From IMG/VR virus record IMGVR_UViG_3300029258_004290, positions 22,915 through 86,914 of that record: a stretch of DNA of 64,000 bases; one strand, 5' to 3'. This document shows positions 7,204 through 28,112 of the stretch, piece by piece (within the stretch, counting starts at the first letter, position 1; every line of letters begins with the position of its first letter). The translations under genes were made by a program, and so were the position numbers. The notes under the pieces were generated by a model. It ran no database searches. It was not told where the DNA came from and was given only the letters and a program-made list of their open reading frames with translations. The DNA comes from a virus.

Positions 7204-7557
7204 ATGGAGGCGAGGCTGACCCTCGACCTGAAGATCCAGGGGACCGGCGCGGCGACGGACCAGCGCCTGGACAAGGTCATAGACTCCGTGCAGTCGCTCG
7301 GGAACGGCCTGACCGTCGTGAAGGACGTGACGGTCGCGACAGGCGGCGGCGACGTGGCGATCGACCTCACGCAGGTCGCCACGGGCACGACGCTGCTCGT
7401 GAGCGCGCCCGCCGCGCTGAGCGCGAAGGTCAACGGGGGCCCGGCCGTCCAGTTCGGGCGGCTGCTCGTCATGCACTACGATGCGGCGGTCACGTCCCTG
7501 GTCCTGGTCAACGACACCGCGGCCGACGTGACCGCGACCGTGGCGGCGGCGTCGTGA
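7204..7557 (+). CDS. putative small virion structural protein (beta-rich)
   Basis: AAGGAGG RBS; Val/Thr/Ala-rich beta-type sequence. Confidence 0.65.
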   Translation: MEARLTLDLKIQGTGAATDQRLDKVIDSVQSLGNGLTVVKDVTVATGGGDVAIDLTQVATGTTLLVSAPAALSAKVNGGPAVQFGRLLVMHYDAAVTSLVLVNDTAADVTATVAAAS

Positions 7558-8219
7558 CCGGCCTCAGGATAGGCGGGGAGAGCGAGCGCCCCCTCTCGCG
7601 GGAGCTGGCGCTGCGGGAGGCGCTGATGAAGGCCAGGTCGGGCCTCGTGCGGAAGAAGGTCACGGTCTCCCGCGGCGGCAGGACCTTCCAGACGACGGTG
7701 TGGGCCAGGCCGGATTTGACGGTCAGTGACCTGACCACCAGGCAGTACGAGGGCGTCCGGCGGGTCGTCGACGAGGCGATCGACTACGCCAAGGACAAGT
7801 ACTCGCCGTTTGCCCGCGCCGCGTTCGACAAGTACGTCGCGCACCGCAACAGCGGGCTGCCGCATCGCCAGGCCCTGGCAAGGCTGCGCGGCTCCCTGCA
7901 GAAGGAGCCGGCCGAGGCGGCCAAGAAGGGGGTCGGCGTCCCCAAGGACCTCGACGCGGCCTACGAGGAGAAGTACAAGGTCATGGAGGCCGCGGAAAAG
8001 GAGGCGCTGGCCGTCTTCAAGAAGCGCGGCATGAAGGTGCGCGACATCAGCGACCGCGCCGCCGACCGCCTCTCCGAGAACGTCGGCGACGAGCTGCAGG
8101 GCCTCATGGACAAGATCGACGAGGGAAAGCCCGTGTCCGCCAAGGAATGGAAGGCGGCGAAGGGCCGCGCCCAGGACCGGGGCGTGGACGCAATCATGGC
8201 CGCGATGGGAGAGACGTGA
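7554..8219 (+). CDS. tagged head-associated protein 1
   Basis: LMKARSGLVRKKVTVSRGGRTFQTTVWARP shared N-terminal tag. Confidence 0.8.
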   Translation: MTGLRIGGESERPLSRELALREALMKARSGLVRKKVTVSRGGRTFQTTVWARPDLTVSDLTTRQYEGVRRVVDEAIDYAKDKYSPFARAAFDKYVAHRNSGLPHRQALARLRGSLQKEPAEAAKKGVGVPKDLDAAYEEKYKVMEAAEKEALAVFKKRGMKVRDISDRAADRLSENVGDELQGLMDKIDEGKPVSAKEWKAAKGRAQDRGVDAIMAAMGET

Positions 8220-8851
8220 TGGACATCCGCCGGAAAATGGAGCTGCAAGAGCGCCTGAGGAAGGCCCGGGAGGGGCTGGTGGCCAGGAAGAAGACGGTCT
8301 ACCGCAAGGGGAAGGCCGTGCAGACGACGGTGTACGTCAGGCCGGGCGAGAAGAGGGCGGCCGATAAGGAGGCGATCCGGGCCAAAGCGGGAAAGAAGCT
8401 GGCCGGCACAGGTAAAGCCGCGATGGACGCGGCCACAGAGGCGGCAAAACGCGCGTTAGGCGCCGACGCGGTTGTTAAGTACGGGCTGCGGACTGAGTGG
8501 GACAAGAAGCCGGAGTACTATGTGGAGACGAAGGACGCCGTTTATCCCGGCGCCAAGACTCCGGGCAAGGCGGTGGAGTCCGTGGTTTCCGAGCTCAGAA
8601 ACCGGGCCGGCGACATGGGCTTTAAGACGATCGGAGAGGTGCTAGTTTACGAGCGGGGCCTCGGCCGGGCTTCGACCTTCGCCAAAAGGCTGGAAAGGGC
8701 CGGTTGGCACGAAGACGACGCGTACGACTTTGCGATCACTGCCTACGACGAGGCCGTCAGCAGGGCCACGAAGGGCGGGAAGTCCATGACCGCCGAGGTC
8801 GCCAAGAAGGCGGTCGCCGCGGCGGCGAAGGCCGTAGAGGGGGAGGCGTAA
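8219..8851 (+). CDS. tagged head-associated protein 2
   Basis: TGATG coupling; LRKAREGLVARKKTVYRKGKAVQTTVYVRP. Confidence 0.8.
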   Translation: MDIRRKMELQERLRKAREGLVARKKTVYRKGKAVQTTVYVRPGEKRAADKEAIRAKAGKKLAGTGKAAMDAATEAAKRALGADAVVKYGLRTEWDKKPEYYVETKDAVYPGAKTPGKAVESVVSELRNRAGDMGFKTIGEVLVYERGLGRASTFAKRLERAGWHEDDAYDFAITAYDEAVSRATKGGKSMTAEVAKKAVAAAAKAVEGEA

Positions 8852-9405
8852 TGGACCCGCGGAGGGTCCTGGCGAAGTCCCGCTTGGCCCGCGACGTCGA
8901 GGGGCTGCGCAAGGGCGTCTCGGCCAGGCGCCGGGCCAGGCAGGCCGGGGCGGCGGGCACGCTCGGCCTGGCGAGGCAGCGGATGACCGGCGCGCCGCGG
9001 CCCGCGTTCGCGGCCAGGGTCGCGCTGCCGGGGGAGCGGCGCGAGTGGAAGGCCGGCACGCACCAGAAGACGGCCCAGGGCGGTTGGGTCAGGGTCGCGA
9101 AGACCGGGAGGGGCGCGAGGGTGAAGGGCCCGACGAACATACCGGAGGCGAACGCGATGGTCCGCGAGGCGATGCGGGGGGCGCGGGTCGTCGCCCGCAT
9201 GGTCGGCGTGAGGCACGAGTACGCCGTCCGCGTGGGCGAGCGGGACGTGATGGTCGGCGACGACCTCGGGACGCTGGTGCACGCGTTCCAGCGTGAGCAG
9301 AAGAGGAAGGCCAGGGAAGTCAAGACCGCCGTGGACGGGGTGCGCGGCGACGCGTACTCGCCCGTCATGCGGGTGAAAGGAGCCAGGAATGTCGGCAGGA
9401 ATTGA
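8851..9405 (+). CDS. head-associated protein 3 (type-2 tag)
   Basis: TAATG coupling, GGAGG RBS; LAKS/LRKG sites and PGERREWKAGTHQKTAQGGWVRV. Confidence 0.75.
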   Translation: MDPRRVLAKSRLARDVEGLRKGVSARRRARQAGAAGTLGLARQRMTGAPRPAFAARVALPGERREWKAGTHQKTAQGGWVRVAKTGRGARVKGPTNIPEANAMVREAMRGARVVARMVGVRHEYAVRVGERDVMVGDDLGTLVHAFQREQKRKAREVKTAVDGVRGDAYSPVMRVKGARNVGRN

Positions 9406-9787
9406 CACCGCGCTGTCGCTGAGGGCGACGCTGCGCAAGGCGAAGGCGATCGGGGGCGGGCGGTTCGGCCTCGTCCGGCAGAAGAGGACGATCTCCCGCG
9501 CCGGGGGGACGTTCCAGACGACCGTCTACGTCCGCCCGGACAGGAAGGAGGCGAGGGCGATCAAGCCGGCGAAGGCCAGCGGCGCACCCGGGGTCGCGGC
9601 GCAAGCGAAGTCTGACGCGCTGAAGACGCAGAGGGCCCGCAAGGAGCGCTTCGACAAGGTGTACTCCGAGTACAACCAGGCGCTGGCGAAGCTGAGGCCG
9701 ACGGACAAGACGGCCGCGGCGGAGACGCTCCGCGCCATGCACCGGGGCCTGCAGCTGGCGAAGAACATCCTAGAGGGAGGCGGCTGA
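9389..9787 (+). CDS. tagged head-associated protein 4
   Basis: AAAGGAG RBS; LRKAK...GLVRQKRTISRAGGTFQTTVYVRP. Confidence 0.8.
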   Translation: MSAGIDTALSLRATLRKAKAIGGGRFGLVRQKRTISRAGGTFQTTVYVRPDRKEARAIKPAKASGAPGVAAQAKSDALKTQRARKERFDKVYSEYNQALAKLRPTDKTAAAETLRAMHRGLQLAKNILEGGG

Positions 9788-11625
9788 TGAGCATCGAGAG
9801 GGAGCTGATCCGGCGCGACGCGCTGCGGAAGGCCCGCCGGGGCTGCGGCGCGGGGAACGCCGTCGCCGGCAGGGGCGGCAGGCCGCTGACCGAGGAGGAG
9901 CGCCGCAGGCGCCACAAGCGCCTGACCGGCGAGGACGAGCCGCCCCCGCGCGGGGCCGGCCGCCGCGAGGGGCTGAGGAAGGCGAGGGGCCGCGAGGGCC
10001 TCACGCCGCAGAAGAAGACCGTCACCAGGGGCGGCAGGACCTTCCAAACGACCGTGTACGTTCGCTCGGGTGAGAAGCCGGCCGGCGACGGGGGCAAGAA
10101 GGACAAGGCCGCCAGGGAAAAGGCCGGCTACGTGTTCCGCAACCGCGCCGCGCGGAGGATCTTCAGCCGAATGGAGAAGTTCGCCCCGGACCCGTTCGGC
10201 AACAAGGCGGACCGCGCGGCGTGGGACGCGGCGGAGAAGGCCTGGGTCGACGCCACGGTCGCCGGGGCCACCAAGACCCCGGCCGACGACGCGGCGGTCG
10301 CGGCCGCCAAGAAAGCGCGCGCCGCGCACGCCGGCGAGGAGTTCAAGGAGAAGGGCGCGCGGGAGATGAAGTTGTCCGCGGAGGGAAAGACCGGCGTGAA
10401 GCAGGGCGAGGCGGCGGAACCGGCAAAGTGGTCCACGGCGGGGGTCGCCAGGGCCGCCGCGAGGGACGCGGCCAGGAAGATGCTCGCCGGGGCCAAGGCG
10501 GGCCCAAAGGAGTCCGGCGCGGAGGCGGCCGGGCGCCGGGACAGGGAGGCCGAGGCCCTGGCGAAGAAGATCGAGGGCGCGGTCGCCGCCGAGATCAAGG
10601 GCCTGGACCCGAAGAAGTCCGCGACGCTGAGCGCGGCGATGCGCGTCGCCAGGGCGGAGGCGGTCCGGGAGTCCGGCGGCGTCGCCAGCGCCTCGCAGGC
10701 GCGGGACGAGATCGATGACCCCTTCGTGACGGAGGTCAGCCAGGAGATGGGCCTCGAGGTTATGTCCATCCTGGGCATTGAGGAGCCGGCCGGGAAGTCG
10801 TTCGACGAGGCGTACGCCGCCGGCCACAACGCCTACGTCGCGGCGAGGATGGCCGGGCGGTCTGTGAAGCAGGCCGAGGGGGACGCCGTGTCCGCCGCCG
10901 CCGCCATGGCGGAGCGGATGAAGGAGGAGGACCCCTACGACGAGTTCCGGGAGCGGCGGGTCGCCGAGGCGCAGGCGCGGGCGAAAGGGAAGGCCGGCGG
11001 GCCGAAAGCCGCGGCCAGCAAGAAGAAGATGGAAGGCATGACCGTCGGCGAGTGGATGTCCGAGGGCCGCCCGCGGCGCCCGTCGCCCAGGAAGAGGGGC
11101 CCGGCCGCGCCGTGGCTCGGGCCCGCGGAGAAGTCCACGGCCATCGGGCGTGAGCTCGGCCGCAGGGAGGCCCCAAAGGGCGGAAGGGCCCCATCCAAGG
11201 AGAAGGGGACCTATGAGGAAAGGATGCACGCGAAGTTCACGGGCGCGCTCCCGAGGGACGAGCGGCGGGCCGAGTACTACAAGAAGAACATCAACCGCCT
11301 CAAGAATCTGTCGGCGAAGGGCAACGAGACGGCGTGGGAGACGGTCGCCGACATGGAGCTGGACAGGGCCTTCGGCTTCCCGAAGGGTGTGACCATGCGG
11401 ATCAGGAAGACCGGCAAGGGCTGGTTCGCCGTCGCGGACGCCACGCGCGTCTCCACCTACAACAAGACGCCGGAGGGGGCGCTCGGCAGCGCGCTGCATT
11501 GGCGGAAGATCGGCCGGACGGAGTATGGCAAGAAGAGGCCAGAGGCCAGGAAGTCCACGGCCATCGGGCGCGAGCTCGGCCGCAGGGAGGCCCTGCGCAA
11601 GGCCAGGCTGAGGGGGCTGATATGA
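9787..11625 (+). CDS. tagged head-associated protein 5 (612 aa, Ala/Lys-rich)
   Basis: TGATG coupling; LRKARGREGLTPQKKTVTRGGRTFQTTVYVRS. Confidence 0.8.
   Translation: MSIERELIRRDALRKARRGCGAGNAVAGRGGRPLTEEERRRRHKRLTGEDEPPPRGAGRREGLRKARGREGLTPQKKTVTRGGRTFQTTVYVRSGEKPAGDGGKKDKAAREKAGYVFRNRAARRIFSRMEKFAPDPFGNKADRAAWDAAEKAWVDATVAGATKTPADDAAVAAAKKARAAHAGEEFKEKGAREMKLSAEGKTGVKQGEAAEPAKWSTAGVARAAARDAARKMLAGAKAGPKESGAEAAGRRDREAEALAKKIEGAVAAEIKGLDPKKSATLSAAMRVARAEAVRESGGVASASQARDEIDDPFVTEVSQEMGLEVMSILGIEEPAGKSFDEAYAAGHNAYVAARMAGRSVKQAEGDAVSAAAAMAERMKEEDPYDEFRERRVAEAQARAKGKAGGPKAAASKKKMEGMTVGEWMSEGRPRRPSPRKRGPAAPWLGPAEKSTAIGRELGRREAPKGGRAPSKEKGTYEERMHAKFTGALPRDERRAEYYKKNINRLKNLSAKGNETAWETVADMELDRAFGFPKGVTMRIRKTGKGWFAVADATRVSTYNKTPEGALGSALHWRKIGRTEYGKKRPEARKSTAIGRELGRREALRKARLRGLI
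11130..11593 (+). repeat. 44-bp direct repeat (11130-11173 and 11550-11593, one mismatch)
   Basis: GAAGTCCACGGCCATCGGGCG(T/C)GAGCTCGGCCGCAGGGAGGCCC, encoding KSTAIGRELGRREA twice. Confidence 0.9.
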
Positions 11626-12323
11626 CCGCCGACCAGGTCCGGCGCCGGCTGGCGCTTCTCGGGGAGCTGCGGAAGGCGAAGGGCCGGGCGCACGGCCGCG
11701 GCCACCTCGTCCCGCAGCAGAGGACCGTCATCCGCATGGGGAAGCAGGTGCAGACGACCGTGTGGGTGAGTCCGGGGGAGGCCGGGCCGACCGCGGAGGG
11801 CGAGGCGAAGCCGGCGGAGAAGAAGACCGGCGCCGACAAGCCGCAGGCCTCCCCGGTGTGGGAGGGTCCGGCGAAAGGGAGCGCGCAGTGGTGGGTGAGG
11901 CTCCGCCACGAGTGGGACTACTCCGGGCTCGGCCCGAGGGTCGCCGCCGTGCTCGGCAAGGTCGGGGGCGCCTCCGCCGAGGACTACGACGCCGCGGAGG
12001 GCCGCGTCATGGAGAAGTGGTACGCGGCCTACGATGAGGAGGAGCCGAAGAAAGCGGACCCCGTGGCCATGCGCGCCGCCAGGGCGGAGGCGAAGAGGCT
12101 GGCGAAGCCCGCGCCGAAGAAGGACAAGTTCGCGGAGTGGCAGAAGGCCTCCGACAAGGCGTGGCCCACCGTCGACCGCGTCGCCAGGGACCACGGCCTG
12201 GGCAAGGAGGAGCGCGGCCGGTTCCACACGGAGCTGTCCAATGCGATCATGGAGGGGAAGCCGACCGGCCCGATCGTCGGCAAGTACATCCCGAAGAACC
12301 CGGCCGTCCGCCACCGCTACTAG
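11622..12323 (+). CDS. tagged head-associated protein 6
   Basis: ATGA coupling; LRKAKGRAHGRGHLVPQQRTVIRMGKQVQTTVWVSP. Confidence 0.8.
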   Translation: MTADQVRRRLALLGELRKAKGRAHGRGHLVPQQRTVIRMGKQVQTTVWVSPGEAGPTAEGEAKPAEKKTGADKPQASPVWEGPAKGSAQWWVRLRHEWDYSGLGPRVAAVLGKVGGASAEDYDAAEGRVMEKWYAAYDEEEPKKADPVAMRAARAEAKRLAKPAPKKDKFAEWQKASDKAWPTVDRVARDHGLGKEERGRFHTELSNAIMEGKPTGPIVGKYIPKNPAVRHRY

Positions 12324-12488
12324 CAGGCACAACCTGCCCCCCTCGCCCGAAGCCAGGGCCGGGGAGCCAAAATAGCTACAGACTAGCCCCGCGGGCTCGG
12401 ACCCGGCGCCGTCGCAGTGGCGCGGCAGCCGGGCAACCGCGCGCGCCCGCAGAGGCGGGCGAGGCGAGCCGGGGGCAAGGAGAGTGGA

Positions 12489-13535
12489 ATGCTGCCTTCG
12501 ACAACGACACTGACCGCGAAGCAGCAGGACCGCCTCGACCGCATGTGCCCCGCCGGGCACAACGCGGCGATCGGGACGGTCGTGCGCGGCGTCCAGACGG
12601 ACATCGCAGACCTGCTGGGCTCGGCCTACGGGCCGGGGCTCACGCTCTACGTCGACGGGAAGTACGGGTCCGACGACGTCACCGTCGCCGCCCCGAACCG
12701 CTACCCCGCGAGCGCCGTCAACCACGGCACCACGTGGGCCACGGCGTTCAAGACCATCCAGGCCGCCCTGACGGTCGCGAGGGGCGCGGGCACGGGCTCC
12801 AACCCGGCGCTCGACAGCAACTACGACCAGGACCACCACGTCACGGTCGTGGTCGCGCCCGGCAACTACGCCGAGAACCTCATCATGGTCGGCGCGGGCA
12901 TCCGCCTGGTCGGCATCGGGGTCCCCGGCACGGACCGCGGCGTGAGCGTCACGCCCCCGGACATGAGCGGGAGCTACCCCGGGTCGATGATCGTCCAGGG
13001 GTCCGGGCTCGAGATCGGGAACATCCTGCTCGTCAACAACTTCGCCTACCCGACCATGTGGTTCGACAAGATGCACTCCAGCTGGGTGCACGACGTCGTC
13101 TTCTACGGGGACGGGGACGCGACGAAGGCGTTCACCACGAACGGGATGAAGAACTCGATCCTGGAGCACTGCCGGATCAGCGAGTTCTCGGCGGCCGGCA
13201 TCGAGGTCAATTACGACGCCAGTTCGCCCGACTACCTGATCGGGTCCCAGATCCGCCACAACCGGATCGGCCAGGGCTCGGGGACGGGCATCCTGGTCGA
13301 CGTCAACCTCGTCGCCTACGACAGCTCGATCTACGACAACACGGTCATCGGGGCCCTGACGCTTGGGATCGACAACAACGCCACCGGCCCGATCGCGATC
13401 CACGACAACTTCGCCTGTATCGTCGACAACACGGCGCCGATCGAGAGCGCCTCGACCATCGGCGGGATGCACCGGAACGCGGTCGTCTACAACGCCAACG
13501 GGACGCGGACGTTCCCGTTCCCGGCGAACGCGTAG
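12489..13535 (+). CDS. right-handed beta-helix (pectin lyase-like) protein, putative head fibre/decoration
   Basis: AAGGAG RBS; LYVDG.., G.TWATAFKTIQAAL, VAPGNYAE, repeated I.HN.I / GI.V beta-helix rungs. Confidence 0.75.
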   Translation: MLPSTTTLTAKQQDRLDRMCPAGHNAAIGTVVRGVQTDIADLLGSAYGPGLTLYVDGKYGSDDVTVAAPNRYPASAVNHGTTWATAFKTIQAALTVARGAGTGSNPALDSNYDQDHHVTVVVAPGNYAENLIMVGAGIRLVGIGVPGTDRGVSVTPPDMSGSYPGSMIVQGSGLEIGNILLVNNFAYPTMWFDKMHSSWVHDVVFYGDGDATKAFTTNGMKNSILEHCRISEFSAAGIEVNYDASSPDYLIGSQIRHNRIGQGSGTGILVDVNLVAYDSSIYDNTVIGALTLGIDNNATGPIAIHDNFACIVDNTAPIESASTIGGMHRNAVVYNANGTRTFPFPANA

Positions 13536-13570
13536 GCGCGCCGGAAGCCCGAGGAAAGGAGAACAGGACA

Positions 13571-13750
13571 GTGAAGACGGAAAAGGTCCACGACGAGAAG
13601 ACGGCCGCGGAGGTCGCCGCCGGATTCCGCAAGAGCGGCGTCGGCATGGCCCCCGAGCAGGCCGGGAAGATGTTCCCGCCCCCCTCCGAGGAGGCGCAGG
13701 CCGCGGCGAAGCCCGAGGCCGCGAAGAAGAAGGCCGGCGGGAAGAAGTAG
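13571..13750 (+). CDS. small hypothetical protein
   Basis: AAAGGAG RBS before GTG; 59 aa. Confidence 0.55.
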   Translation: MKTEKVHDEKTAAEVAAGFRKSGVGMAPEQAGKMFPPPSEEAQAAAKPEAAKKKAGGKK

Positions 13751-13959
13751 CACAGCCTTCGGCGCCCCCTTGGGGGGATTGACCGGGGGGTAGGCATCTA
13801 GCACTGCCTCCGGGGCCCGTCCGCGGGCCCCCCTCGCCGCCGCCTCCCCGCGCCCGCCTAGGCCACGGGGACCCGGAACCCGCCGGATCGCGGGCCGGGA
13901 TGCGGGGGGCGGCGAGGAAGACCCGCGGGCCGACAGAACAAAGGAGAGAAGGGGAGAGC

Positions 13960-15588
13960 ATGGCGACCAAGAGCCTGAAGGACATAGGGAGCCCCGGCAA
14001 GCTGCTCGCGCAGCTGACCACCGGCGGCTTCGTCCCGTTCGCGGAGGGCGTGCGCCGGCGCGTGATGCGCGTCAGCTTCGCCGTCCTCGAGCGGATGGCC
14101 GACCGCAACCCGATCGCGAACGCGATCGTCAACAAGCGGTGCCAGCAGGTGCGGCCGTTCTGCCGCGTCTCGACCGACCCCGCGGAGAGGGGCTTCTCCA
14201 TCCAGCCGAAGTCCGGCCTCACGCCGAAGATGAAGGAGGGGAAGAAGCCGCGGCGCATCGTCGAGCTCGAGGACTTCGTGATGAACACGGGGTTCGCCTA
14301 CGAGCCCGACAGGGAGGACGACTTCCCGGACTTCGCGCAGATGCTGGTCCGCGACGTCCTCACCTTCGACCAGAACGCGACGGAGCTGCGCAGGACGAAC
14401 GCCGGCAAGGTCTTCGACTACTGGTACATCGACCCGACGACCATCGCCCGCGCCGTCCCGATCGGGGGCGGCCAGGTGCACCACCCCTCGCCCGCGCCGG
14501 TCGGCGGGAAGGGCGCGGCATCGGCCACGCTCCGCTCCTGGATGGAGAGGGCGCGGGGCCCCAAGGGCCGGGACGTGCGCTTCGTGCAGCGCGAGCTGCA
14601 GAACAACCGGACGAAGATCACCGCGACGTTCACCGCGGAGAACATGATCTTCGACTACATGTACAAGAGGAGCCGGCAGCAGTACCGGGGCTACGGCTAC
14701 TCGCCGCTCGAGCAGTGCATCGACACGGTGACCACGCTCCTGTTCGGACTCACCTACAACAAGGACCTCTTCATACGCGAGCGCCTGCCCAAGGGCTTCC
14801 TCAAGGTCATGGGCGACGTCGACGCGGCGACGCTCCGGGCGGTGAAGAACGCCTGGGTCGCGGAGATGACCGGCTACGGGGCGAAGTTCCGCGTGCCGAT
14901 CATCCCCTCCGGCAAGGAGGGCGTCGGGATCGACTGGCAGGCGCTCGGCCAGTCCAACCGCGACATGGAGTACACCAAGCTCCTCCACCTCATCATTTCC
15001 ATCATGTGCGCCGTCTTCACCATCGACCCGATTGAGATCGGGATCAAGACGGACCTCGCGCCCCAGGGCCTCGGGCACTCCGGCACTAAGCCGAAGATCG
15101 AGGAGAGCAAGGACACCGGGCTCGGCGCGCTCCTCATGTACATCGAGACCTACATGAACAAGATCCTCCACAAGGTGGACGAGGACGTCGTCTTCAAGTT
15201 CACCGGCGTGAAGGAAGGGGACGCCAAGAAGAAGGCGGAGCTGCGGGAGATGCAGATCAAGCAGAGCCGGAGCGTCGACGACTTCCGCCGAGCCGACGGC
15301 CTCGAGCCCTACGAGGAGCTGTGGAGCAGCATCCCGCTGCGGCCCGAGATCGTGCAGCTGGTCCAGGCCGAGAAGCAGGAGCAGCAGATGGCCGCGATGG
15401 GCGGCGGGGCGCAGCCCGGCGGCGGGGAGGAACCCGCGGACGAGGGCGGGGACGGCGGCGAGGGCGGCCGGTTCTCCTGGGAGGTCGGCGAGGGGGACGC
15501 CGAGCTCGAGGGCGGGGCCGCGGAGAAGTCGCTAGCCTCCCTCGAGGACGCGCTCTTCAAGGGCGGGCCGTTGGAGGTCGTCATCTGA
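13960..15588 (+). CDS. portal protein
   Basis: YGYSPLEQC..., LF...LPKGFL, W..LGQSNRDMEY, AVFTIDPIEIG motifs typical of SPO1/Twort-like portals. Confidence 0.9.
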   Translation: MATKSLKDIGSPGKLLAQLTTGGFVPFAEGVRRRVMRVSFAVLERMADRNPIANAIVNKRCQQVRPFCRVSTDPAERGFSIQPKSGLTPKMKEGKKPRRIVELEDFVMNTGFAYEPDREDDFPDFAQMLVRDVLTFDQNATELRRTNAGKVFDYWYIDPTTIARAVPIGGGQVHHPSPAPVGGKGAASATLRSWMERARGPKGRDVRFVQRELQNNRTKITATFTAENMIFDYMYKRSRQQYRGYGYSPLEQCIDTVTTLLFGLTYNKDLFIRERLPKGFLKVMGDVDAATLRAVKNAWVAEMTGYGAKFRVPIIPSGKEGVGIDWQALGQSNRDMEYTKLLHLIISIMCAVFTIDPIEIGIKTDLAPQGLGHSGTKPKIEESKDTGLGALLMYIETYMNKILHKVDEDVVFKFTGVKEGDAKKKAELREMQIKQSRSVDDFRRADGLEPYEELWSSIPLRPEIVQLVQAEKQEQQMAAMGGGAQPGGGEEPADEGGDGGEGGRFSWEVGEGDAELEGGAAEKSLASLEDALFKGGPLEVVI

Positions 15589-15589
15589 C

Positions 15590-17419
15590 ATGAGGCCCCT
15601 GACCCTCATACCCAGGCCGCGCAGCGCCCTGAGGAAGGCGTTCGGCAAGCAGGCCGACCCCGACTTCACGGTCAAGCGCTTCTCCGACGGCAACTATCAC
15701 ATGAAGGTCCCCGGCAAGGGGTGGATGAAGCTCGGCAAGGACCGCGCGCGGGCGGAGGAGTTCGCCAGGAAGCGCAGGGCAGGCGGCGGCGAGAAGCCGC
15801 AGGCCAAGGTCGGCCAGACCGTCCGCATCAGGGGGAGCGGCCGCGGGTCGCTCGGCCGGGGCGTCGTGGGGAAGATCAAGGAGATAGGCCAGGGGTTCGT
15901 GCGCGTGGCGGACGAGGCGGGGCGCGTGTTCCGCGTCAAGACGCCCGCGCTCGCCCTGGCCAAGGCCGCGCCGCCCCCCGAGCCCGGGCCGTCGGGCCCC
16001 CTCGCGCTGTACAAGGCGCGGCCCGGGCTGGTGCGCCAGGCGCGCCTGGCCGCGCGGGGCGGCCGGACGTTCCGGACCCACGTGTGGGTGAGGCCCGGCG
16101 ATCGCCCGGCCGCGGCGGGGGGCTCCCGCGCCGCCGCCGTCAAGGAGTGGCTGAAGAGCCGCTCCTCCCTCGAGGTCGAGACGCTGTCGCCGGCCGAGGC
16201 GGCGTCGGTCCTCAACTCCCTCGGGACGGACCCGGACCGCCTGCACGCGGCCAGGGAGCCGGCGAACGCCGCGCACGCCGTCGGCAGGATCGCCGCGTCC
16301 GCCCTCGTCCGCCGGGCCGCGGGGCAGGACCTCTCCGCATTCCGCTCCCGCCTCGAGGACCTCGAGAGGGCCACCGGCGACGCGGTGTGGAACATGGACA
16401 TCCGCGAGGAGGCGACCCTCTACGACCCCTCCTCCTCCGAGGAGGACGTGGCCTACGCCATGATGGGCGCCTGGGGCAGCTCCACCAACAAGGTGGCGGC
16501 AGTGATGCTGCAGGAGGCCGCGGCGGAAGAGTTGCTGGGGGTAACCAAGTTCCGCGTCTGGCAACGGCACAACATGCCGGCGGTCAGGGACGAGGAGGCC
16601 AGGAGGCTGGAGGCCGAGGTAGTCCGCGCGCAGAAGGCCTGGCAGGTGACGCCCGCCAACACCCCCGAGTCTGCGGCGGCCTTCGACGAGCTGGACGGGC
16701 GGAGGGCGGCGCTGCACCGCCATCAAGACGCGGCACGGGCCAGCGGCACGAGGGCCTACGTGCCCCCGGAGGTGTTCGCCAGGGCGCGCCGCGCCGTCCG
16801 CGCCATGTGGGGGCGGACCCAGGAGGAGCTCCGCACGAGGCCCCCGTGGTCCCTCGAGGCCCAGGGAAGGGAGCGGGCGTGGCGCGTGGCCTGCAACACG
16901 GCGGCGATCCGGCTGCAGGACGTCCCGGGGTCCGCCGACGTGCTGGCGCGAATGGCGACGGCCGGCTCCAACGCGGCCGCCACGATGCGGGACTACTTCG
17001 GGGAGGTACCGGCCGACTGGTCCTCCCCGTCGGCGGAGGCCCCACGGCGGGTGCTGGCGGAGGCGCATTCGCTCATGGCCGGCGCCGTGGAGGAGGGGCG
17101 CGACCCGTTCGACGAGGAGACGTTCCGCCGGTGCGCGGCAGCCGTGGCGGAGGAGCTGACGCGGAAGCGGCCGTTGCTGCTGTATCGGGGCGTGACGCAG
17201 GACACCGTCGCCGGCAACGTCGTGGAGAGCTGGTCCACGTCGCGGAGCGTCGCCCGGCAGTTCGACGGCTACGACATCCTCGAGGACGCCGGCGTGCCGT
17301 ACGGCCGGATCCTCGCGTTCTGGGGGTCCGACAGCAAGCTGGCCAGGAACAACCTGCACCACGGGGAGAAGGAGTTCCTGCTGCTGTTTGACGACCCGGG
17401 AGAGGGCGGCCGGCCGTGA
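15590..17419 (+). CDS. tagged head-associated protein with C-terminal ADP-ribosyltransferase-like domain
   Basis: Tag LYKARPGLVRQARLAARGGRTFRTHVWVRP; C-terminal LLYRG..ESWSTS..GEKEFLLL (R-S-E). Confidence 0.8.
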   Translation: MRPLTLIPRPRSALRKAFGKQADPDFTVKRFSDGNYHMKVPGKGWMKLGKDRARAEEFARKRRAGGGEKPQAKVGQTVRIRGSGRGSLGRGVVGKIKEIGQGFVRVADEAGRVFRVKTPALALAKAAPPPEPGPSGPLALYKARPGLVRQARLAARGGRTFRTHVWVRPGDRPAAAGGSRAAAVKEWLKSRSSLEVETLSPAEAASVLNSLGTDPDRLHAAREPANAAHAVGRIAASALVRRAAGQDLSAFRSRLEDLERATGDAVWNMDIREEATLYDPSSSEEDVAYAMMGAWGSSTNKVAAVMLQEAAAEELLGVTKFRVWQRHNMPAVRDEEARRLEAEVVRAQKAWQVTPANTPESAAAFDELDGRRAALHRHQDAARASGTRAYVPPEVFARARRAVRAMWGRTQEELRTRPPWSLEAQGRERAWRVACNTAAIRLQDVPGSADVLARMATAGSNAAATMRDYFGEVPADWSSPSAEAPRRVLAEAHSLMAGAVEEGRDPFDEETFRRCAAAVAEELTRKRPLLLYRGVTQDTVAGNVVESWSTSRSVARQFDGYDILEDAGVPYGRILAFWGSDSKLARNNLHHGEKEFLLLFDDPGEGGRP

Positions 17420-20400
17420 AGCGCCGCGCGCTCCGGGGCCTCGGCGGCCGGCGGGTGGAGGTCCTGACGCCCGAGACCGAGGCCGACGCGGCCCGCCTCG
17501 CCTCCGCGGCGGCGGCGGGGGAGGCCGACGGCCGCGCCTCGTTCGGCGACGGGCGCCCCCTGCGCAAGGCCCGCCGCGGGATGGTGCTGGGTAGGCGCGG
17601 CCGCCTGGTCCCCGAGAAGCGGACCGTCACCCGCGGCGGCAGGACGTTCCAGCAGACGGTGTGGGTCCGGCCGGGCGAGAGGCCGAAGGCGCCGGCAACG
17701 GCGGCCGCGGTGGCAAGGGCGATCGAGCCCGTCGTGGCCGAGGTGAAGCGCATGGCCCCGAAGTGGCTGGCCTTCCGGCAGCAGGGAGAGCCCGCCTGGG
17801 GCGGCAAGCGGAAGAAGGAGACGGCCGCGGGCCTCGCCAGGTCCGCGATGCACGACTGGGACATCGGCAAGCAGGTGACGGCGATCCTCCGGAAAAGACC
17901 GAGGCTGGCGGCGGCGTTCTTCAACGACATGGAGGGCGTCAACCGCGAGCTGAAGAGGCAGACCGGGCTCGCGATGGACTACGCCCGCTTCGGCGAGATT
18001 GACCTGCTGGACACGATGAAGGCGGCGGCCGCCTCCGGTGAGAGCCTCGCCGGGTTCCGCGCGCAGGCGAAGGGGCTCGGCGAGAGGTACGACAAGGGCC
18101 GGATCATCGACAACCCGCGCTACGACCGCGGGCTGCGGTGGGTCGCCACCATGCACGACCCGACCTCGACGACCGAGGAGATCCAGCACGCGATGCTCGC
18201 GCAGTGGGAGCGTGGCGGCCTCGGGGCGAACGCGGTCACGCACCAGATCGTGCAGAGCGCGTTCGCCGGCAAGCCGGTCCGGGACGCGGGCATCCCCGAC
18301 GTTATGGTGGAGAAGGCGAAGCACGCTGTCCTCGACCTGTATCGCCGGACCCAGGACGCGCTGCGCGCCAGGGGCGAGAAGAAGATCCGCCTCTATCGCG
18401 GCGTACAGACGATGGCGGGCGGCAACATCCTCGAGAGCTGGACCCCGGACGAGGAGATGGCCACGTTCTTCGCCAACATCGGCAAGTTCAAGGGCAAGGT
18501 CCGGCGCGGGAACATCCCGGCCGCGCGCGTCCTGGCGACGTACGACACGCCGCCGGGCGAGGGCATCCTCCGCGACAATGAGCAGGAGTACATGGTCCTG
18601 ACCAAGCGGCCCGACGCGTTCGGCAAGAGCATGGCGTGGATCCTGGAAAAGGCTCGAGCCGGCCTGGTGCAGCGCGAGGTCCAGGTCAAGGGGCGGCGCA
18701 GGTTCTACTTCGCGAAGCGCTGGGTGAAGGTCGGGCCGGAAGAGGACGACCTGGAGCCGATGGCGCTCTCCACCATGCCGAAGCCGGTCGGCTACATCAC
18801 GCCGTCGGGGAACGTCCGCCGGCTGAGCAAGGCGGGCAGGTACGGCTGGGGCAAGGCGTCGAGGGCGCAGCTCGAGCGCTGGCGCGACGTCATCACCGGG
18901 AAGGCTGCGCCGGAGACCGAGGCGGAGCGGCTCGGCCGCCGGGAGTACGAGGCCGGCGAGTACGGCGGCACGCCGCCGGGGTACGAGCACAAGCATGGCA
19001 AGATGCCAGACGGGAGCCCGCCGCCCGGGGACGGGAGCAGGGCTACGCCGGAGCGGATGCTCGCGGAGTGCCCGAAGATCGGCGAGGCGCTGCGGAACAT
19101 GGCCGGGCCCTGGGACTACCTGGGGTCGCACGGCGACCAACGGATGTTCTTCGACGCGTACTCGGGAAAGGACGCCGTCCCGGTCGAATACCAGGACCGC
19201 TTCTGCCAGGACTACGAGTTCGCGTTCAAGACCTGGCGCGCCGCGGCCCCTGACGGGAGCCCGCGAAGGGGGATCCCGACGCCGCACGAGCTCGTCTCCA
19301 AGCTGCCCGGGGTCAAGGGCGTGCTCGGCCGGCTGAAGGGCGCGCAGGTGAAGAAGGCGGCGAAATGGCTGTGGGACCACCTGGCGTCGGTCGCGTGGGG
19401 CAGCTTCGTCAAGGGCGTGAAGACCGTGACCGAGGCGCAGCGCGCCCAGGCCGACGCGTGGATCGCGGCCTTCAAGGACCCGGAGGGGATGGGCATCTCG
19501 TACGCCGGGGCCCGCGCGCTCGCCCTCTACTCCGACGCGTGCCACCGGGAGGCGGAGGCGCAGAGCTACACGAAGCAGCGGACGAAGCGCCTGGTCGCGG
19601 GGATGAAGAACGCGGAGGGCTACGACTTCGCCGGCAGGCAGATCACGCCGAAGGAGGCGAAGGGGATCGACGCCATGCTCGGCCGGATAAGGGGCCTGGT
19701 GCCGAGCGCGAACCGCCTGGCCACGGCGTGGCAGCTGCGGGTCAACGTCATCGCGCTCGGGTCGATCAAGGGGCCGACGGGCCAGGGCGTCGCGGGCCAG
19801 TACTGGCCCGACCTCGGGCCGGAGGACGCCGCCGGCGAGCCGGAAACCTGGCGGAAGAGGGGCGTCAAGTCCCGCGAGCTGGACCTGGACTACAAGCACA
19901 CCTACGCGGTCGCGCACGAGCTCATGCACTCGTGGGACGACGCGGCGAAGAAGGGCATCGCCGTTGACCCGGGCGCCGGCGCCCCGAAGGCCAGGGGCTC
20001 CATTGGCTGGAAGTTCCGCGAGCTGATGGGCGACGCCATGGTGGAGAACGGCACGCTCGCCCGGTGGTACCGCTTCGGCACGGACGCGGCCATACCGACG
20101 ACCGCGAACGAGCGAGAGTACCGCGACGCGTCCGATAAGCTGGCCTACGCGGTCGGCGAGCCGGAGGCCTCGATCACCGCGCAGCTCGTGCGTTTCACCC
20201 ACACGAAGCACGGAAGCCGCGTCAAGACCCTCGACGCCGTGAGCAAGGCGTTCCGGAAGGCTGCCACGGAGGCGGGCCTGACGGAGAGCGAGAGCGGCGT
20301 GTTCTGGAAGGACGTGCGTCACACGTGGGAGGCGCGGCGGTCGCCCTTCGCCCGGCTGGTCCGCACCAAGTACGGGACGCGCAAGGAGACCGTCTACGAG

Positions 20401-22170
20401 ACCCTGCAGCGCGAGAAGAACTCCGGCGCGTACCTCTGCAGCACGGCGGAGTATACGGCGCGGTTCTTCGAGCAGTACGCCGCGTGGAAGCACCGCGGCA
20501 AGGAGATCGACGGGCCGGCCGGGTTCCTCAAGTGGGAGCGGTACCTCCGGCGGTCGCACTACTTCACCGAGGCGGAGTTCAAGGCGCTGCTCCCCCACTT
20601 CAAGGCCGCGTGCAGGGAGCGGATGGGCGAGAAGTTCCTCAAGTCGCTCCTCCGCCGGCTCACGCTGCTCCTGAAGGGCAAGGGCTTCCCGGTCGGGACC
20701 ATCCGGAAGATGGCCGGCCTGTGGCACAAGAAGCTCCCGACCGGGAAGTGGTGGCCGCTGAAGAAGGACGAGGTGAAGGCGCACGAGGCCATGCTCAAGG
20801 AGAAGGGCCTCCTGAAGCCGGGCGAGGAGCAGAAGCCGCGCAGGCGGAAGAAGAAGGGCGAGGCGCAGGACAAGGCGCCGCCGCCCCCGCCGGGGCCGGT
20901 CGGCGAGATGGCCGCCGCGATCGTGAAGAACAACCCGAGCGCCGGCAGGATCAAGCCGACGCCGGGGGCGACGTCCCAGAACTACGCCGTCCCCTACGAC
21001 TACGGCCAGCTCCTCGCCGAGTACACGAAGGACGACCCGGACCTCGCGGCGTCCGTGCTCAACGACCTCGAAGGGACGATGCGCGCCATCGCCCAGGCGT
21101 CGGGCGGCGTGAGCCCCCCGAACAGCGGCGCCTTCGCCGCGCTTCTCAACCGCATCACCGACTCAAACCTGCAGGCGATGCTGCTGGCCGCCCACAAGGG
21201 CGGGAAGTCGCTCGCCGGCCTCCGGGCGAAGATGCCGGCGTACGCGAAGCTCACCGGCAACAAAGAGTGGGACCTGCAGCGGAGGGAGTGGGCGACGTGG
21301 CCCGACCCGATGTCATCCAGGCAGGACGTCCACTACGCCATGCTCGGCGCCTGGGGCTCTAGCTCCGGGAAGCCGGGCGCGGTGCTGCTGCAGCAGACGG
21401 TCGGCGAGGTGCTCCTCGGGCGGAAGCCGTTCATCTGGCAGCACCTCGTGGCGAAGAAGGGCAAGGGCGGCAAGTTCCCCATCCACCCGAAGGTGCGCGA
21501 GACCGCGAAGGACGCGGTGCGCTGGCTGTACGCGCAGACGCAGCGGAGGCTCAAGGAGGTCGATGACATCAAGACGCTCCAGGACCTGGACTACAGGGGC
21601 AAGGACGCCGCCGCCCTGATGGACGCGGTCGGCGCGGAGCTCACGAGGGACATGCCGCCCGGCGACGCCAAAACCAAGCGCCTGGAGATCTACGCCGAGG
21701 TCGCCAAGTCGCTGCCGCGGGAGTACCCGACCTTCTTCGTATCCGAGCAGAACACCGTGCAGGTCATGCAGGCGATCGTGGCGATCGCCGCGGAACCGCT
21801 CAAGGCGGCCGGCCTGGACCAGCCGTACGGCATCGAAGTGACCGTCAGGAACGCGCTCAGGAAGGCCATGAAGGGGACGGCGGCGAAGGCCGGGTCGAAG
21901 GACAGGCTGGTCCTGTTCCGCGGCGTCAAGGCCCCGACCGTCGCGCGCAACGCCGTCGAAAGCTGGACCCGCCGCAAGTCCACCGCCGACAGCTTCGACC
22001 ACCACAAGGTGTTCCGCGAGGAGGTCCCGCTCTCGCAGATCCTTGCGTTCCCCAAGACCGACAGCAAGCTCGCGGCGAACGAGGGCAAGTACGGAGAGGA
22101 CGAGTTCCTCCTCCTAGCCACACCACCGCTCGAGCACCTGGCCACGCAGGCCAAGGAGGCGCACTCATGA
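17416..22170 (+). CDS. large polyvalent protein: ART - HExxH peptidase/LPD1-like - ART
   Basis: Three tag segments; LYRG/ESWT/NEQEYMVL; AHELMHSWD plus YLCSTAEYTARFFEQY; LFRG/ESWT/GEDEFLLL. Confidence 0.85.
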   Translation: MKRRALRGLGGRRVEVLTPETEADAARLASAAAAGEADGRASFGDGRPLRKARRGMVLGRRGRLVPEKRTVTRGGRTFQQTVWVRPGERPKAPATAAAVARAIEPVVAEVKRMAPKWLAFRQQGEPAWGGKRKKETAAGLARSAMHDWDIGKQVTAILRKRPRLAAAFFNDMEGVNRELKRQTGLAMDYARFGEIDLLDTMKAAAASGESLAGFRAQAKGLGERYDKGRIIDNPRYDRGLRWVATMHDPTSTTEEIQHAMLAQWERGGLGANAVTHQIVQSAFAGKPVRDAGIPDVMVEKAKHAVLDLYRRTQDALRARGEKKIRLYRGVQTMAGGNILESWTPDEEMATFFANIGKFKGKVRRGNIPAARVLATYDTPPGEGILRDNEQEYMVLTKRPDAFGKSMAWILEKARAGLVQREVQVKGRRRFYFAKRWVKVGPEEDDLEPMALSTMPKPVGYITPSGNVRRLSKAGRYGWGKASRAQLERWRDVITGKAAPETEAERLGRREYEAGEYGGTPPGYEHKHGKMPDGSPPPGDGSRATPERMLAECPKIGEALRNMAGPWDYLGSHGDQRMFFDAYSGKDAVPVEYQDRFCQDYEFAFKTWRAAAPDGSPRRGIPTPHELVSKLPGVKGVLGRLKGAQVKKAAKWLWDHLASVAWGSFVKGVKTVTEAQRAQADAWIAAFKDPEGMGISYAGARALALYSDACHREAEAQSYTKQRTKRLVAGMKNAEGYDFAGRQITPKEAKGIDAMLGRIRGLVPSANRLATAWQLRVNVIALGSIKGPTGQGVAGQYWPDLGPEDAAGEPETWRKRGVKSRELDLDYKHTYAVAHELMHSWDDAAKKGIAVDPGAGAPKARGSIGWKFRELMGDAMVENGTLARWYRFGTDAAIPTTANEREYRDASDKLAYAVGEPEASITAQLVRFTHTKHGSRVKTLDAVSKAFRKAATEAGLTESESGVFWKDVRHTWEARRSPFARLVRTKYGTRKETVYETLQREKNSGAYLCSTAEYTARFFEQYAAWKHRGKEIDGPAGFLKWERYLRRSHYFTEAEFKALLPHFKAACRERMGEKFLKSLLRRLTLLLKGKGFPVGTIRKMAGLWHKKLPTGKWWPLKKDEVKAHEAMLKEKGLLKPGEEQKPRRRKKKGEAQDKAPPPPPGPVGEMAAAIVKNNPSAGRIKPTPGATSQNYAVPYDYGQLLAEYTKDDPDLAASVLNDLEGTMRAIAQASGGVSPPNSGAFAALLNRITDSNLQAMLLAAHKGGKSLAGLRAKMPAYAKLTGNKEWDLQRREWATWPDPMSSRQDVHYAMLGAWGSSSGKPGAVLLQQTVGEVLLGRKPFIWQHLVAKKGKGGKFPIHPKVRETAKDAVRWLYAQTQRRLKEVDDIKTLQDLDYRGKDAAALMDAVGAELTRDMPPGDAKTKRLEIYAEVAKSLPREYPTFFVSEQNTVQVMQAIVAIAAEPLKAAGLDQPYGIEVTVRNALRKAMKGTAAKAGSKDRLVLFRGVKAPTVARNAVESWTRRKSTADSFDHHKVFREEVPLSQILAFPKTDSKLAANEGKYGEDEFLLLATPPLEHLATQAKEAHS

Positions 22171-28080: not shown

Positions 28081-28112
28081 CCGCGCATAACAACGGTAGG
28101 GAGTGCAAAGAC

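What the first reader, a model, noticed from the sequence alone, without database searches (positions are those of the whole stretch)
7554..22170. Family of head-region proteins sharing an LxK|A site plus a ~25-aa tag: candidate modular capsid-cargo system
Seen: consensus L-x-K-A-(R/K)...G-L-V-x-x-K-x-T-V-x-R-x-G-(R/K)-T-F-Q-T-T-V-(W/Y)-V-R-P occurs in seven separate ORFs (about 7623, 8255, 9431, 9973, 11667, 16007, 17560) and in degenerate form internally at about 18643. What follows the tag is unrelated between most ORFs, which range from 132 to 1584 aa. The genes flank the portal and precede MuF, protease and capsid. The same hydrophobic-x-K|(A/S/G) site sits at the capsid propeptide junction (LQK30|A31). 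Known: Twort-like capsids are cleaved at K|S before TGYG, and T4 internal proteins and Alt use a cleaved capsid-targeting leader. Inference: a portable 'package, cleave, inject' tag that lets this phage load a variable effector payload into the head, potentially usable for protein delivery.
Basis: partly seen in the sequence, partly recalled or inferred. Interest (0 to 1): 0.88.

Follow-up and report, generated by a model that had tools for sequence, protein, structure and literature searches.

The report
Cut-site-plus-hairpin tag on phage cargo
Seven genes around the portal gene of an uncultured 87-kb phage start with the same short label (a likely head-protease cutting site, then a small basic beta-hairpin) in front of otherwise unrelated proteins, so these are probably proteins packed into the capsid, trimmed and delivered with the DNA; no experiment shows this yet.

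Summary
Seven ORFs (7554, 8219, 9389, 9787, 11622, 15590, 17416) carry L-x-K-A followed by GLVxxKxTVxRGGRTFQTTVWVRP. Profile E-values are 1e-13 to 1e-22. One degenerate internal copy exists and none elsewhere in the complete 86,914-bp genome.

The copies are old: 66% nucleotide identity, and 43% of conserved residues use different codons.

The cassette has no Pfam model and no solved structure. It occurs in at least 169 protein clusters, N-terminally or between domains, joined to the domain set of phage "polyvalent proteins" (InPase, ART, NUDIX, Zeta toxin, MuF-C and others). In 10 of 11 loci over 4 kb it lies beside SPO1/Twort-type portal, MuF, protease or capsid genes.

L-x-K-[AGS] is threefold enriched only in head-module proteins. 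In the capsid protein it aligns with the phi812 maturation cut (K24|S25).

Most likely reading (about 0.6): the head protease cuts after Lys, and the hairpin stays on the mature cargo as a docking or retention element. This differs from the T4 leader, which is removed. Packaging, cleavage and injection are all untested.

This scan has already reported the same cassette on other phage genomes.

The parts
7554..8219 (+). g7554, 221-aa tagged protein (pI 9.7); leader, LMK26|A, hairpin; tag at 7599-7718
8219..8851 (+). g8219, 210-aa tagged protein; LRK|A then hairpin; tag at 8231-8350
   Evidence: (P0006)
8851..9405 (+). 184-aa very basic protein (pI 11.8) with N-terminal LAK9|S and LRK21|G but no hairpin (leader/site only)
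9389..9787 (+). g9389, 132-aa tagged protein; LRK17|A; tag at 9407-9544; weak LPD22 match after the tag
9787..11625 (+). g9787, 612-aa tagged protein; full tag at 9949-10074 (LRK65|A); leader-only copies at aa 15 (9799-9843) and at the C-terminal end (11569-11622, ALRK605|ARLRGLI*)
11622..12323 (+). g11622, 233-aa tagged protein; LRK18|A; tag at 11643-11780
   Evidence: phrog_1917 2.4e-5 over the tag
13900..15588 (+). portal protein, SPO1/Twort-type; C-terminal ALFK554|GG site
15590..17419 (+). g15590, 609 aa: leader (LRK16|A), beta-rich N-domain 15644-15964 ending LAK125|A, tag 15983-16102 (LYK142|A), C-terminal ART-like module 17117-17416 (LYRG..ESWS..EKEF)
17416..22170 (+). g17416, 1584-aa three-module protein: 51-aa leader; tag 17536-17679; ART-like module 1 (18337-18630); degenerate tag 18628-18753; HExxH module (HELMH at 19915-19929); type-2 cassette 20665-20778; ART-like module 2 (21838-22167)
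22167..22811 (+). DUF5661 protein; starts MRLIVFTK8|AKK (leader and site, no hairpin)
23301..24395 (+). MuF-like head morphogenesis protein, not fused to cargo; MAK33|A near the N-terminus
24826..25698 (+). prohead protease (presumed enzyme for the K| sites); four L-x-K-[AGS] sites (seven with any hydrophobic residue at P3); aa 193-217 (25402-25476) copy the mature MCP N-terminus
25706..26584 (+). acidic scaffold-like protein (pI 4.5) with eight hydrophobic-x-K-[AS] sites
26620..28011 (+). major capsid protein; LQK30|A31 (26707-26712) aligned to the phi812 K24|S25 maturation cut

Best explanation
The seven genes encode basic internal head proteins (cargo) of an SPO1/Twort-type capsid. Each starts with a two-part cassette.

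Part 1 is a short, probably helical or flexible leader ending in hydrophobic-x-Lys|Ala. This is the cutting rule of the phage's prohead protease, the same rule that trims the capsid protein, scaffold, portal tail and the protease itself.

Part 2 is a 20-residue amphipathic, basic beta-hairpin (GLVxKKVTVTRGGKTFQTTVWVRP). It lies after the cut, so it remains at the new N-terminus of every mature cargo piece.

Proposed sequence of events:
- Cargo, including the three-module 1584-aa protein, is co-assembled into the procapsid.
- The protease removes leaders and separates modules.
- Each released module keeps its hairpin as a docking or retention element, on the capsid or scaffold interior first and on DNA later.
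- The modules leave with the genome at infection and act as ADP-ribosyltransferase-like and other effectors.

Shown: the cassette, its modularity, its link to head genes, the enrichment of the site, the homology of the capsid site to a known cut, and the hairpin fold prediction.

Inferred: loading, cleavage, retention and ejection, and which head component binds the hairpin.
For: - Seven full copies occur only in the head module of a complete 86,914-bp genome. They are kept by selection, not by recent duplication.
- The family has 169 clusters at E<=1e-3 among 1.84 billion representatives.
- There are 239 instances in 204 other proteins, 125 N-terminal and 114 internal. 84% have hydrophobic-x-K-[ASG] within 14 residues upstream.
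- Fusion partners are the phage polyvalent-protein repertoire: InPase 12, DUF5661 10, LPD1 7, ART/PARP families, NUDIX, Zeta toxin, MuF_C, SNF2, SAM lyase, RelA/SpoT, 2H, GNAT.
- 10 of 11 loci longer than 4 kb place tag genes beside a portal, MuF, protease or MCP gene homologous to this phage's.
- L-x-K-[AGS] occurs 27 times against 8.2 expected in head proteins, and 17 against 18.0 in the rest of the proteome.
- An N-proximal site is present in 10/14 head genes against 13/84 others, p 4.6e-5.
- MCP K30 aligns with K24 of the phi812 MCP. The deposited mature phi812 chain (9row, 439 aa) starts at S25, against 463 aa in 5lii. Eight MCP homologues keep the site.
- The protease copies the MCP sequence starting exactly at that Lys: 19/25 identical, E 1e-8.
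- AlphaFold2 with 57 sequences gives a hairpin at pLDDT 85-90 and a leader at about 53.
- All tagged proteins have pI 9.7-11.2; the scaffold has pI 4.5.
- In g17416 all three module borders carry a K|small site plus a small beta element.
Against: - There is no virion proteomics, N-terminal data or genetics for this phage or any carrier. The YungSlug paper has none.
- Many relatives have leaders of only 3-6 residues (MILK|A, MKLILK|A). Cutting there seems pointless, so the 'site' could partly be a structural piece of the module.
- 16% of instances have no site.
- One tag per polyprotein would suffice for loading, so repeated tags argue for some function other than loading, or in addition to it.
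- Not every L-x-K-[AGS] can be cut: K1483 lies inside ART-like module 2.
- The binding partner of the hairpin is unknown, and no sequence mimicry of MCP, scaffold or portal was found.
- The enzymatic identity of the cargo here rests on R/S/ExE motifs and a sub-threshold DRAT match only.
Confidence: 0.6

Rival explanations
1. The hairpin is mainly a nucleic-acid-binding element: a basic beta-ribbon that holds each cargo piece on the packaged DNA, or acts on host nucleic acid after entry. It is not an address for the procapsid. Loading would depend on the leader or on other contacts.
For: - The hairpin is very basic and sits on uniformly basic proteins.
- It is retained after the presumed cut and repeated before every module, which fits a post-cleavage role.
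- The generic structural neighbours of the model include the RNA-binding hairpin of ribosomal protein S7, though none is significant.
Against: - One face of the predicted hairpin is hydrophobic (V, V, F, V, V). This suits protein docking better than DNA contact (inference from the strand register).
- The tag was found only with one head lineage, which is unexpected for a generic DNA binder.
Confidence: 0.2
2. The cassette is a processing signal used after delivery or by the cargo's own peptidase (the HExxH/MPTase idea of Iyer et al. 2017), not by the prohead protease. The similarity to the capsid site is coincidental.
For: - g17416 holds an HExxH module.
- Polyvalent proteins are proposed to be cut by their MPTase domains (PMC5512222).
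- Cassettes sit at module borders.
Against: - Most carriers here and elsewhere are small proteins without any peptidase domain.
- The site is also enriched in scaffold, protease, portal and MCP.
- It matches a known capsid maturation cut.
- The protease-MCP copy begins at the Lys.
Confidence: 0.1
3. The hairpin is an ejection leader: the N-terminal element that engages the portal or tail channel so that cargo can be threaded out ahead of or with the DNA. It plays no part in loading.
For: In every case the hairpin ends up within 3-14 residues of the mature N-terminus, or is at the very N-terminus in site-less Herelleviridae proteins.
Against: - There is no direct evidence.
- No similarity to known portal-binding or tail-lumen proteins was found.
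- This reading is compatible with, rather than exclusive of, the main explanation.
Confidence: 0.08
4. The resemblance is due to chance or recent duplication and has no function.
For: None beyond the short length of the motif.
Against: - E-values are 1e-13 to 1e-22 in the genome, with 169 clusters in other genomes.
- Synonymous sites are diverged.
- The position before unrelated domains is fixed.
Confidence: 0.02

Closest known systems
Phage T4 capsid-targeting sequence of internal proteins IPII/IPIII (and processed Alt), removed by prohead protease gp21 (Mullaney and Black 1996, as summarised in PMC9958956)
   Same: A short N-terminal signal is shared by unrelated internal head proteins, including an ADP-ribosyltransferase. 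The prohead protease processes them inside the prohead, and they are delivered with the DNA. The signal is transferable to foreign proteins.
   Different: In T4 the address is the roughly 10-residue leader, which is cut off. Here the conserved element is a beta-hairpin downstream of the cut and would be retained. The cut is after Lys here; T4 gp21 cuts after Glu (my knowledge, not tested here). The cassette also occurs internally between domains of polyproteins. No sequence comparison with T4 was made.
Phage-type polyvalent proteins (Iyer, Burroughs, Anand, de Souza, Aravind 2017, PMC5512222)
   Same: The effector domain set is the same (InPase, ART-PolyVal, NUDIX, Zeta, MuF-C/PBECR, 2H, RelA/SpoT, LPD1, SNF2). 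The position beside portal and terminase genes is the same. So is the idea of head-packaged, injected, processed multi-domain proteins.
   Different: Term searches of that paper found no description of this cassette. It proposes MPTase autoprocessing rather than the prohead protease. In this phage most carriers are single small proteins, not polyproteins.
Maturation cleavage of SPO1/Twort-type (Herelleviridae) major capsid proteins (phi812: 5lii full length, 9row mature chain; SPO1 Gp6.1: 9vel)
   Same: The MCP is homologous (E 3e-38 and 9e-26). The hydrophobic-x-K|small junction sits at the same alignment column just before (T/A)GYG.
   Different: In these entries the cut is documented for the capsid protein only. 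Its use on a family of tagged cargo proteins is the new part.
MuF/SPP1 gp7-fused polymorphic toxins of temperate phages (Jamet et al. 2017; my knowledge) and the MuF fusions noted in PMC5512222
   Same: Effector domains ride into the capsid on a head-internal carrier and are delivered at infection. One family member (P0013) has MuF followed by tagged modules.
   Different: There the carrier is a whole MuF domain bound to the portal. Here it is a roughly 35-residue cassette, and the MuF-like gene of this phage is separate and untagged.
Protease-processed ejection proteins of giant phages (SPN3US/phiKZ; PMC7411985, seen only in the listing)
   Same: Many head-internal proteins are trimmed by the prohead protease at a short consensus.
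   Different: The head lineage and cut rule differ, and no shared retained hairpin is described. I did not read that paper beyond its abstract.

Membership tests
T4-type capsid-targeting-sequence system | A short N-terminal leader is sufficient to target foreign proteins into the prohead | not testable with these tools
   Needs a reporter-loading experiment. Background in PMC9958956.
T4-type capsid-targeting-sequence system | The targeting element is removed by the prohead protease | tested here: not met
   The conserved hairpin lies 3-14 residues downstream of the presumed cut and would be retained. Only a variable 3-51-residue leader would be removed.
T4-type capsid-targeting-sequence system | Sequence relatedness to the T4 IP leaders and T4-type head genes | not tested
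   No T4 sequence was compared. The head genes here match SPO1/Twort-type families.
Phage-type polyvalent proteins (Iyer et al. 2017) | Two or more effector domains of the described repertoire in one polypeptide | tested here: inconclusive
   The family as a whole meets this. In this window only g17416 is multi-module. Its modules have ART-like R/S/ExE motifs and HExxH, but no Pfam hit above threshold (DRAT 16.2 bits against a cutoff of 25).
Phage-type polyvalent proteins (Iyer et al. 2017) | Encoded among portal/terminase late genes | tested here: met
SPO1/Twort-type head module with Lys-specific maturation | MCP, portal and protease homologous to Herelleviridae proteins | tested here: met
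   MCP against 9vel 3e-38 and 5lii 9e-26. Portal about 30% identical to Bacillus phage portals. Protease matches phrog_1028 at 2.9e-16.
SPO1/Twort-type head module with Lys-specific maturation | Capsid protein cut after Lys just before (T/A)GYG | tested here: inconclusive
   The site is conserved in alignment with the phi812 K24|S25 junction. The cut itself cannot be observed here.
R-S-E clade ADP-ribosyltransferases (cargo modules) | Arg, Ser-x-Ser/Thr and Glu-x-Glu motifs in order | tested here: met
   LYRG / ESWS(T) / E(K,Q,D)E in all three modules
R-S-E clade ADP-ribosyltransferases (cargo modules) | Significant profile or fold match to a known ART | tested here: inconclusive
   Only DRAT at E 0.006, below cutoff. 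The PDB profile search found nothing at E<0.1. The model was too poor for a fold search.
MuF-fused toxins | Effector fused to a MuF domain | tested here: not met
   The MuF-like gene 23301-24395 is separate and carries no effector or hairpin.

The most novel reading that the evidence does not exclude
The 20-residue hairpin is a self-sufficient, transferable address read by a conserved component of SPO1/Twort-type heads. It stays on the mature protein to hold it inside the capsid and to take it out with the DNA. With the Lys|small cut site it forms a plug-in cassette. Through it a whole lineage of phages swaps, strings together and delivers enzymes, and it could be used to load chosen proteins into such capsids.
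Probability: 0.4. Interest if true: 0.8.

Novelty: new variant of a known kind. Interest (0 to 1): 0.6.

Why it matters
How phages choose which proteins go into the capsid and into the host is understood in detail only for T4 and a few others. Here a compact cassette marks dozens of unrelated enzyme families next to the head genes of a widespread, mostly uncultured phage lineage. I found no Pfam model, no solved structure and no description of it in the papers searched.

If it is the loading and processing signal, three things follow:
- The injected first-strike proteins of these phages could be read directly from sequence.
- It would explain how polyvalent proteins are cut into working units.
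- It would offer a small tag for loading reporter proteins into capsids.

Four cultivable Bacillus and Lysinibacillus phages carry the hairpin, so the idea can be tested at the bench.

Tried and rejected
- Scans of viral contigs with patterns or alignments gave only two loci. One exact DNA pattern gave none, and one alignment was too diverse to use.
- The genome-collection scan found only two MAG contigs, both phage-like.
- The canonical tag was not found in the cultured capsid relatives Touem01, Thermus Cumys and Bordetella PHB04. PHB04 has only a weak divergent candidate at E 0.3.
- AlphaFold2 of g15590 without an alignment was poor (pLDDT 49.7). Its structure search gave only generic helical matches.
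- Foldseek of the 46-residue tag model gave nothing at E<=0.001.
- A profile search of PDB sequences with the tag found only chance integrin matches.
- A profile search with the ART-like modules found nothing significant.
- The ESM Atlas gave no usable hit.
- Full-text search for the motif strings found only unrelated T-cell epitope papers.
- No paper in the library holds 'polyvalent protein', 'prohead protease' and 'capsid' together.
- PF26856, precomputed on several carriers, is a different roughly 55-residue W..NWMRA domain, not the tag.
- Chance and recent duplication were rejected.
- A third beta-strand role for L-x-K-A was not supported by the model (helix, low confidence).
Full report
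**What the DNA is.** The window is bases 22915-86914 of a single 86,914-bp virus record with direct terminal repeats, rated complete. G+C is about 70%. Nearly all genes lie on the + strand.

The region holds a head module:

| Gene | Coordinates |
|---|---|
| Large terminase | 3536-5341 |
| Portal | 13900-15588 |
| MuF-like protein | 23301-24395 |
| Endonuclease VII | 24444-24833 |
| Prohead protease | 24826-25698 |
| Acidic scaffold-like protein | 25706-26584 |
| Major capsid protein (MCP) | 26620-28011 |

Portal and MCP are about 28-31% identical to those of Herelleviridae and of some 90-kb Pseudomonas, Bordetella and Thermus myophages. By sequence the MCP matches solved SPO1 Gp6.1 (9vel, 3e-38) and phi812 MCP (5lii, 9e-26).

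**Checking the observation.**
- A profile of the seven segments finds exactly these seven in the six-frame translation of the whole genome (i-E 1e-19 to 1e-22).
- A broader profile made from 57 family members scores them 1e-13 to 1e-19. It gives the internal copy in the 1584-aa protein E 0.008 and finds nothing else better than E 0.29.
- The frames are coding (GC3 0.84-0.97).
- The hairpin-coding DNA is only 53-74% identical between copies. 43% of codon pairs for identical residues use different codons. The copies are therefore old and kept by selection on the peptide.
- Downstream sequences are unrelated, except that g15590 and g17416 share ART-like modules.

**Anatomy of the cassette.** A variable leader (about 14-50 residues before the conserved L-x-K here) ends in L-x-K-A. 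After 1-12 residues comes G-L-V-x-x-K-x-T-V-x-R-G-G-R-T-F-Q-T-T-V-W/Y-V-R-P-G-E/D.

AlphaFold2 with a 57-sequence alignment predicts a two-stranded hairpin (strands 23-31 and 34-42 of the 46-mer, pLDDT 85-90). The low-confidence helix before it holds the Lys (pLDDT about 53). From the strand register, one face is hydrophobic (V, V, F, V, V) and the other is Thr/Gln/Lys plus the Trp; this is my inference.

**The family.** A profile search of 1.84 billion cluster representatives gives 169 proteins at E<=1e-3. They range from 58 to 2249 aa and have up to four copies each.
- Across 204 non-self proteins I count 239 instances, 125 N-terminal and 114 internal.
- 84% have hydrophobic-x-K-[A/S/G] within 14 residues upstream. 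P3 is mostly L or I. P1' is A in 125, S in 57 and G in 19.
- Leaders of N-terminal copies are 3-28 residues.
- 38 instances lack the site, among them proteins where the hairpin follows the initiator Met directly.

No Pfam model covers the cassette. PHROG 1917, 'virion structural protein', touches it weakly. No PDB chain contains it.

The attached domains are those of phage-type polyvalent proteins. They include InPase, DUF5661, LPD1, ART-PolyVal, ADPrib_exo_Tox, PARP, NUDIX, Zeta toxin, MuF_C, SNF2/Sno helicases, SAM lyase, RelA/SpoT, 2H, GNAT and topoisomerase IB (PMC5512222).

**Neighbourhoods.** Of 11 fetched loci longer than 4 kb, 10 place the tag genes next to a portal, MuF, protease, scaffold or MCP gene homologous to this phage's. 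These loci are three cultured Herelleviridae records, two IMG/VR contigs, four metagenome contigs and two MAG contigs.

Arrays of two or three small tagged genes recur (L009, L013, L015). Only two of 185,579 species genomes hold the searched pattern, both on phage-like MAG contigs. Among 50,697 phage records only YungSlug, Nachito and LysYB1/2 carry it. In each it heads a roughly 870-aa PARP-like protein just upstream of the portal gene, without a Lys site.

**The cut site.**
- L-x-K-[AGS] occurs 27 times in head-module proteins against 8.2 expected from composition. It occurs 17 times against 18.0 in the other 84 called genes.
- An N-proximal site is present in 10 of 14 head genes against 13 of 84 others (Fisher p 4.6e-5).
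- Sites are dense in the scaffold and the protease and sit at the portal's C-terminal tail.
- In the MCP, K30 aligns with K24 of phi812. The phi812 full-length chain has 463 residues, and the deposited mature chain has 439 and starts at S25. SPO1 Gp6.1 has LNK|A there.
- Eight MCP homologues from the fetched loci keep hydrophobic-x-K|[A/S].
- The protease carries, right after its own VIK193|G, a 25-residue copy of MCP residues 30-54, 19/25 identical and E 1e-8.

These results support, but do not prove, that the prohead protease cuts after this Lys in many head proteins.

**The large protein.** g17416 reads as follows:
- A leader, LRK51|A and the hairpin.
- ART-like module 1.
- LEK412|A and a degenerate hairpin.
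- A module with HELMH at aa 834.
- LLK1087|G and a different small element (GFPVGTIRKMAGLWHKKLPTGKWWPL).
- ART-like module 2.

A profile of that second element, built from six other proteins, hits only this place in the genome (E 1.8e-4). So all three module borders carry 'cut site plus small beta element'.

The three ART-like modules are homologous to one another and keep Arg / Ser / Glu-x-Glu motifs. They reach no curated threshold.

**Mechanism.** The best-supported reading is protease-processed head cargo. The genes lie in the head module. The proteins are uniformly basic (pI 9.7-11.2) beside an acidic scaffold (pI 4.5). They share the head proteins' cut rule, and their relatives are the proteins long argued to be packaged and injected.

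The new point against the T4 model is order. The conserved hairpin is downstream of the cut and would stay on every mature piece. It also exists without any site. So the hairpin, not the leader, is the constant element. I take it to be a docking or retention element.

Its partner (scaffold, MCP inner face, portal or DNA) is not identified. A DNA-binding role or an ejection-leader role is not excluded. Very short leaders (MILK|A) and repeated tags inside polyproteins are not fully explained by a pure loading signal.

**What is known.** The closest precedents are the following:
- The T4 capsid-targeting sequence (PMC9958956).
- Polyvalent proteins (PMC5512222).
- The Lys-specific maturation of Twort/SPO1-type capsids (PDB entries).

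I found no description of this cassette in the polyvalent-protein paper by term search. Motif strings found nothing relevant, and neither did combined terms. The YungSlug paper has no virion proteomics. My searches cover only the held library.

**Earlier notes of this scan.** At least eight follow-up reports on other phage genomes describe the same or sister cassettes with the same reading. I treated these as leads. The tests above were run here independently.

**Verdict.** This is a real, widespread, uncatalogued cassette. Its function is inferred and none of it has been measured. I rate it a new variant of a known kind (head-internal, protease-processed, injected proteins), with interest 0.6.

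Noticed in passing
window 25402-25476 (protease aa 193-217) and 26707-26781 (MCP aa 30-54): The prohead protease carries a 25-residue copy (19/25 identical, E 1e-8) of the start of the mature capsid protein, beginning exactly at the Lys of both cut sites. Protease ORFs of relatives L012 and L020 also hit the MCP. This may be how the protease is built into the procapsid and then frees itself.
   Followed up: partly
window 20665-20778 (g17416 aa 1084-1121): This is a second cassette type: hydrophobic-x-K|[AGS], then P-[VI]-G-T-[IV]..G..W/Y.K[VI]....W.P. It is shared with P0007, P0022, P0048, P0064, P0109 and P0176. A profile built without this phage hits only this place in the genome (E 1.8e-4).
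   Followed up: partly
window 15644-15964 (g15590 aa 19-125): A beta-rich domain (partly confident even in a single-sequence model) is bracketed by two Lys|Ala sites and placed before the tag. The same domain (VGxxVxI...GSLGRGVVGxVKEIGxxFxRV.D..GR.FRVP) recurs inside polyvalent proteins P0013, P0015 and P0025. No family was assigned.
   Followed up: partly
window 11569-11625: g9787 ends with a leader-only copy, ALRK|ARLRGLI, cut short by the stop codon. It abuts the start of the next tagged gene in another frame, and KSTAIGRELGRREA occurs twice in g9787. This looks like a relic of a once-fused polyprotein or of cassette shuffling.
   Followed up: no
window 22167-22811 and 8851-9405: Two head-module proteins have the leader and Lys|small site but no hairpin. 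They are the DUF5661 protein, which starts MRLIVFTK|AKK, and the pI 11.8 protein, which starts MDPRRVLAK|S. The site is therefore used without the hairpin too.
   Followed up: partly
window 12489-13535: A 348-aa acidic protein lies between the tagged genes and the portal gene. Its sequence pattern looks beta-helix-like (my impression from the sequence). It has no tag and was not searched.
   Followed up: no
window 24444-24833: An endonuclease VII gene (phrog_2914, 4.8e-32) is wedged between the MuF-like and protease genes.
   Followed up: no
window 28110-28556 and 25706-26584: There are two very acidic proteins (pI 4.5) with long Asp/Glu runs. One is the scaffold-like protein and the other a 148-aa protein just after the MCP gene. 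They contrast with the uniformly basic tagged proteins.
   Followed up: partly
L001 9001-11613 (YungSlug PARP-like protein), P0020, P0165, P0180, P0195: A roughly 55-residue repeat (G[IV]TW.EH...G[IV]NWMRA.MA.K) follows the hairpin in many carriers. It probably corresponds to the precomputed label PF26856, which is missing from the local Pfam copy.
   Followed up: partly
L018 about 1750-1870 (Bordetella phage PHB04, gene after the portal): This is a weak, divergent tag-like stretch, FFKADNHDMPPANRAGLTRKQIVDRTGRKQTKWVRTD (E 0.3). It hints that cultured 90-kb relatives may carry unrecognised variants.
   Followed up: no
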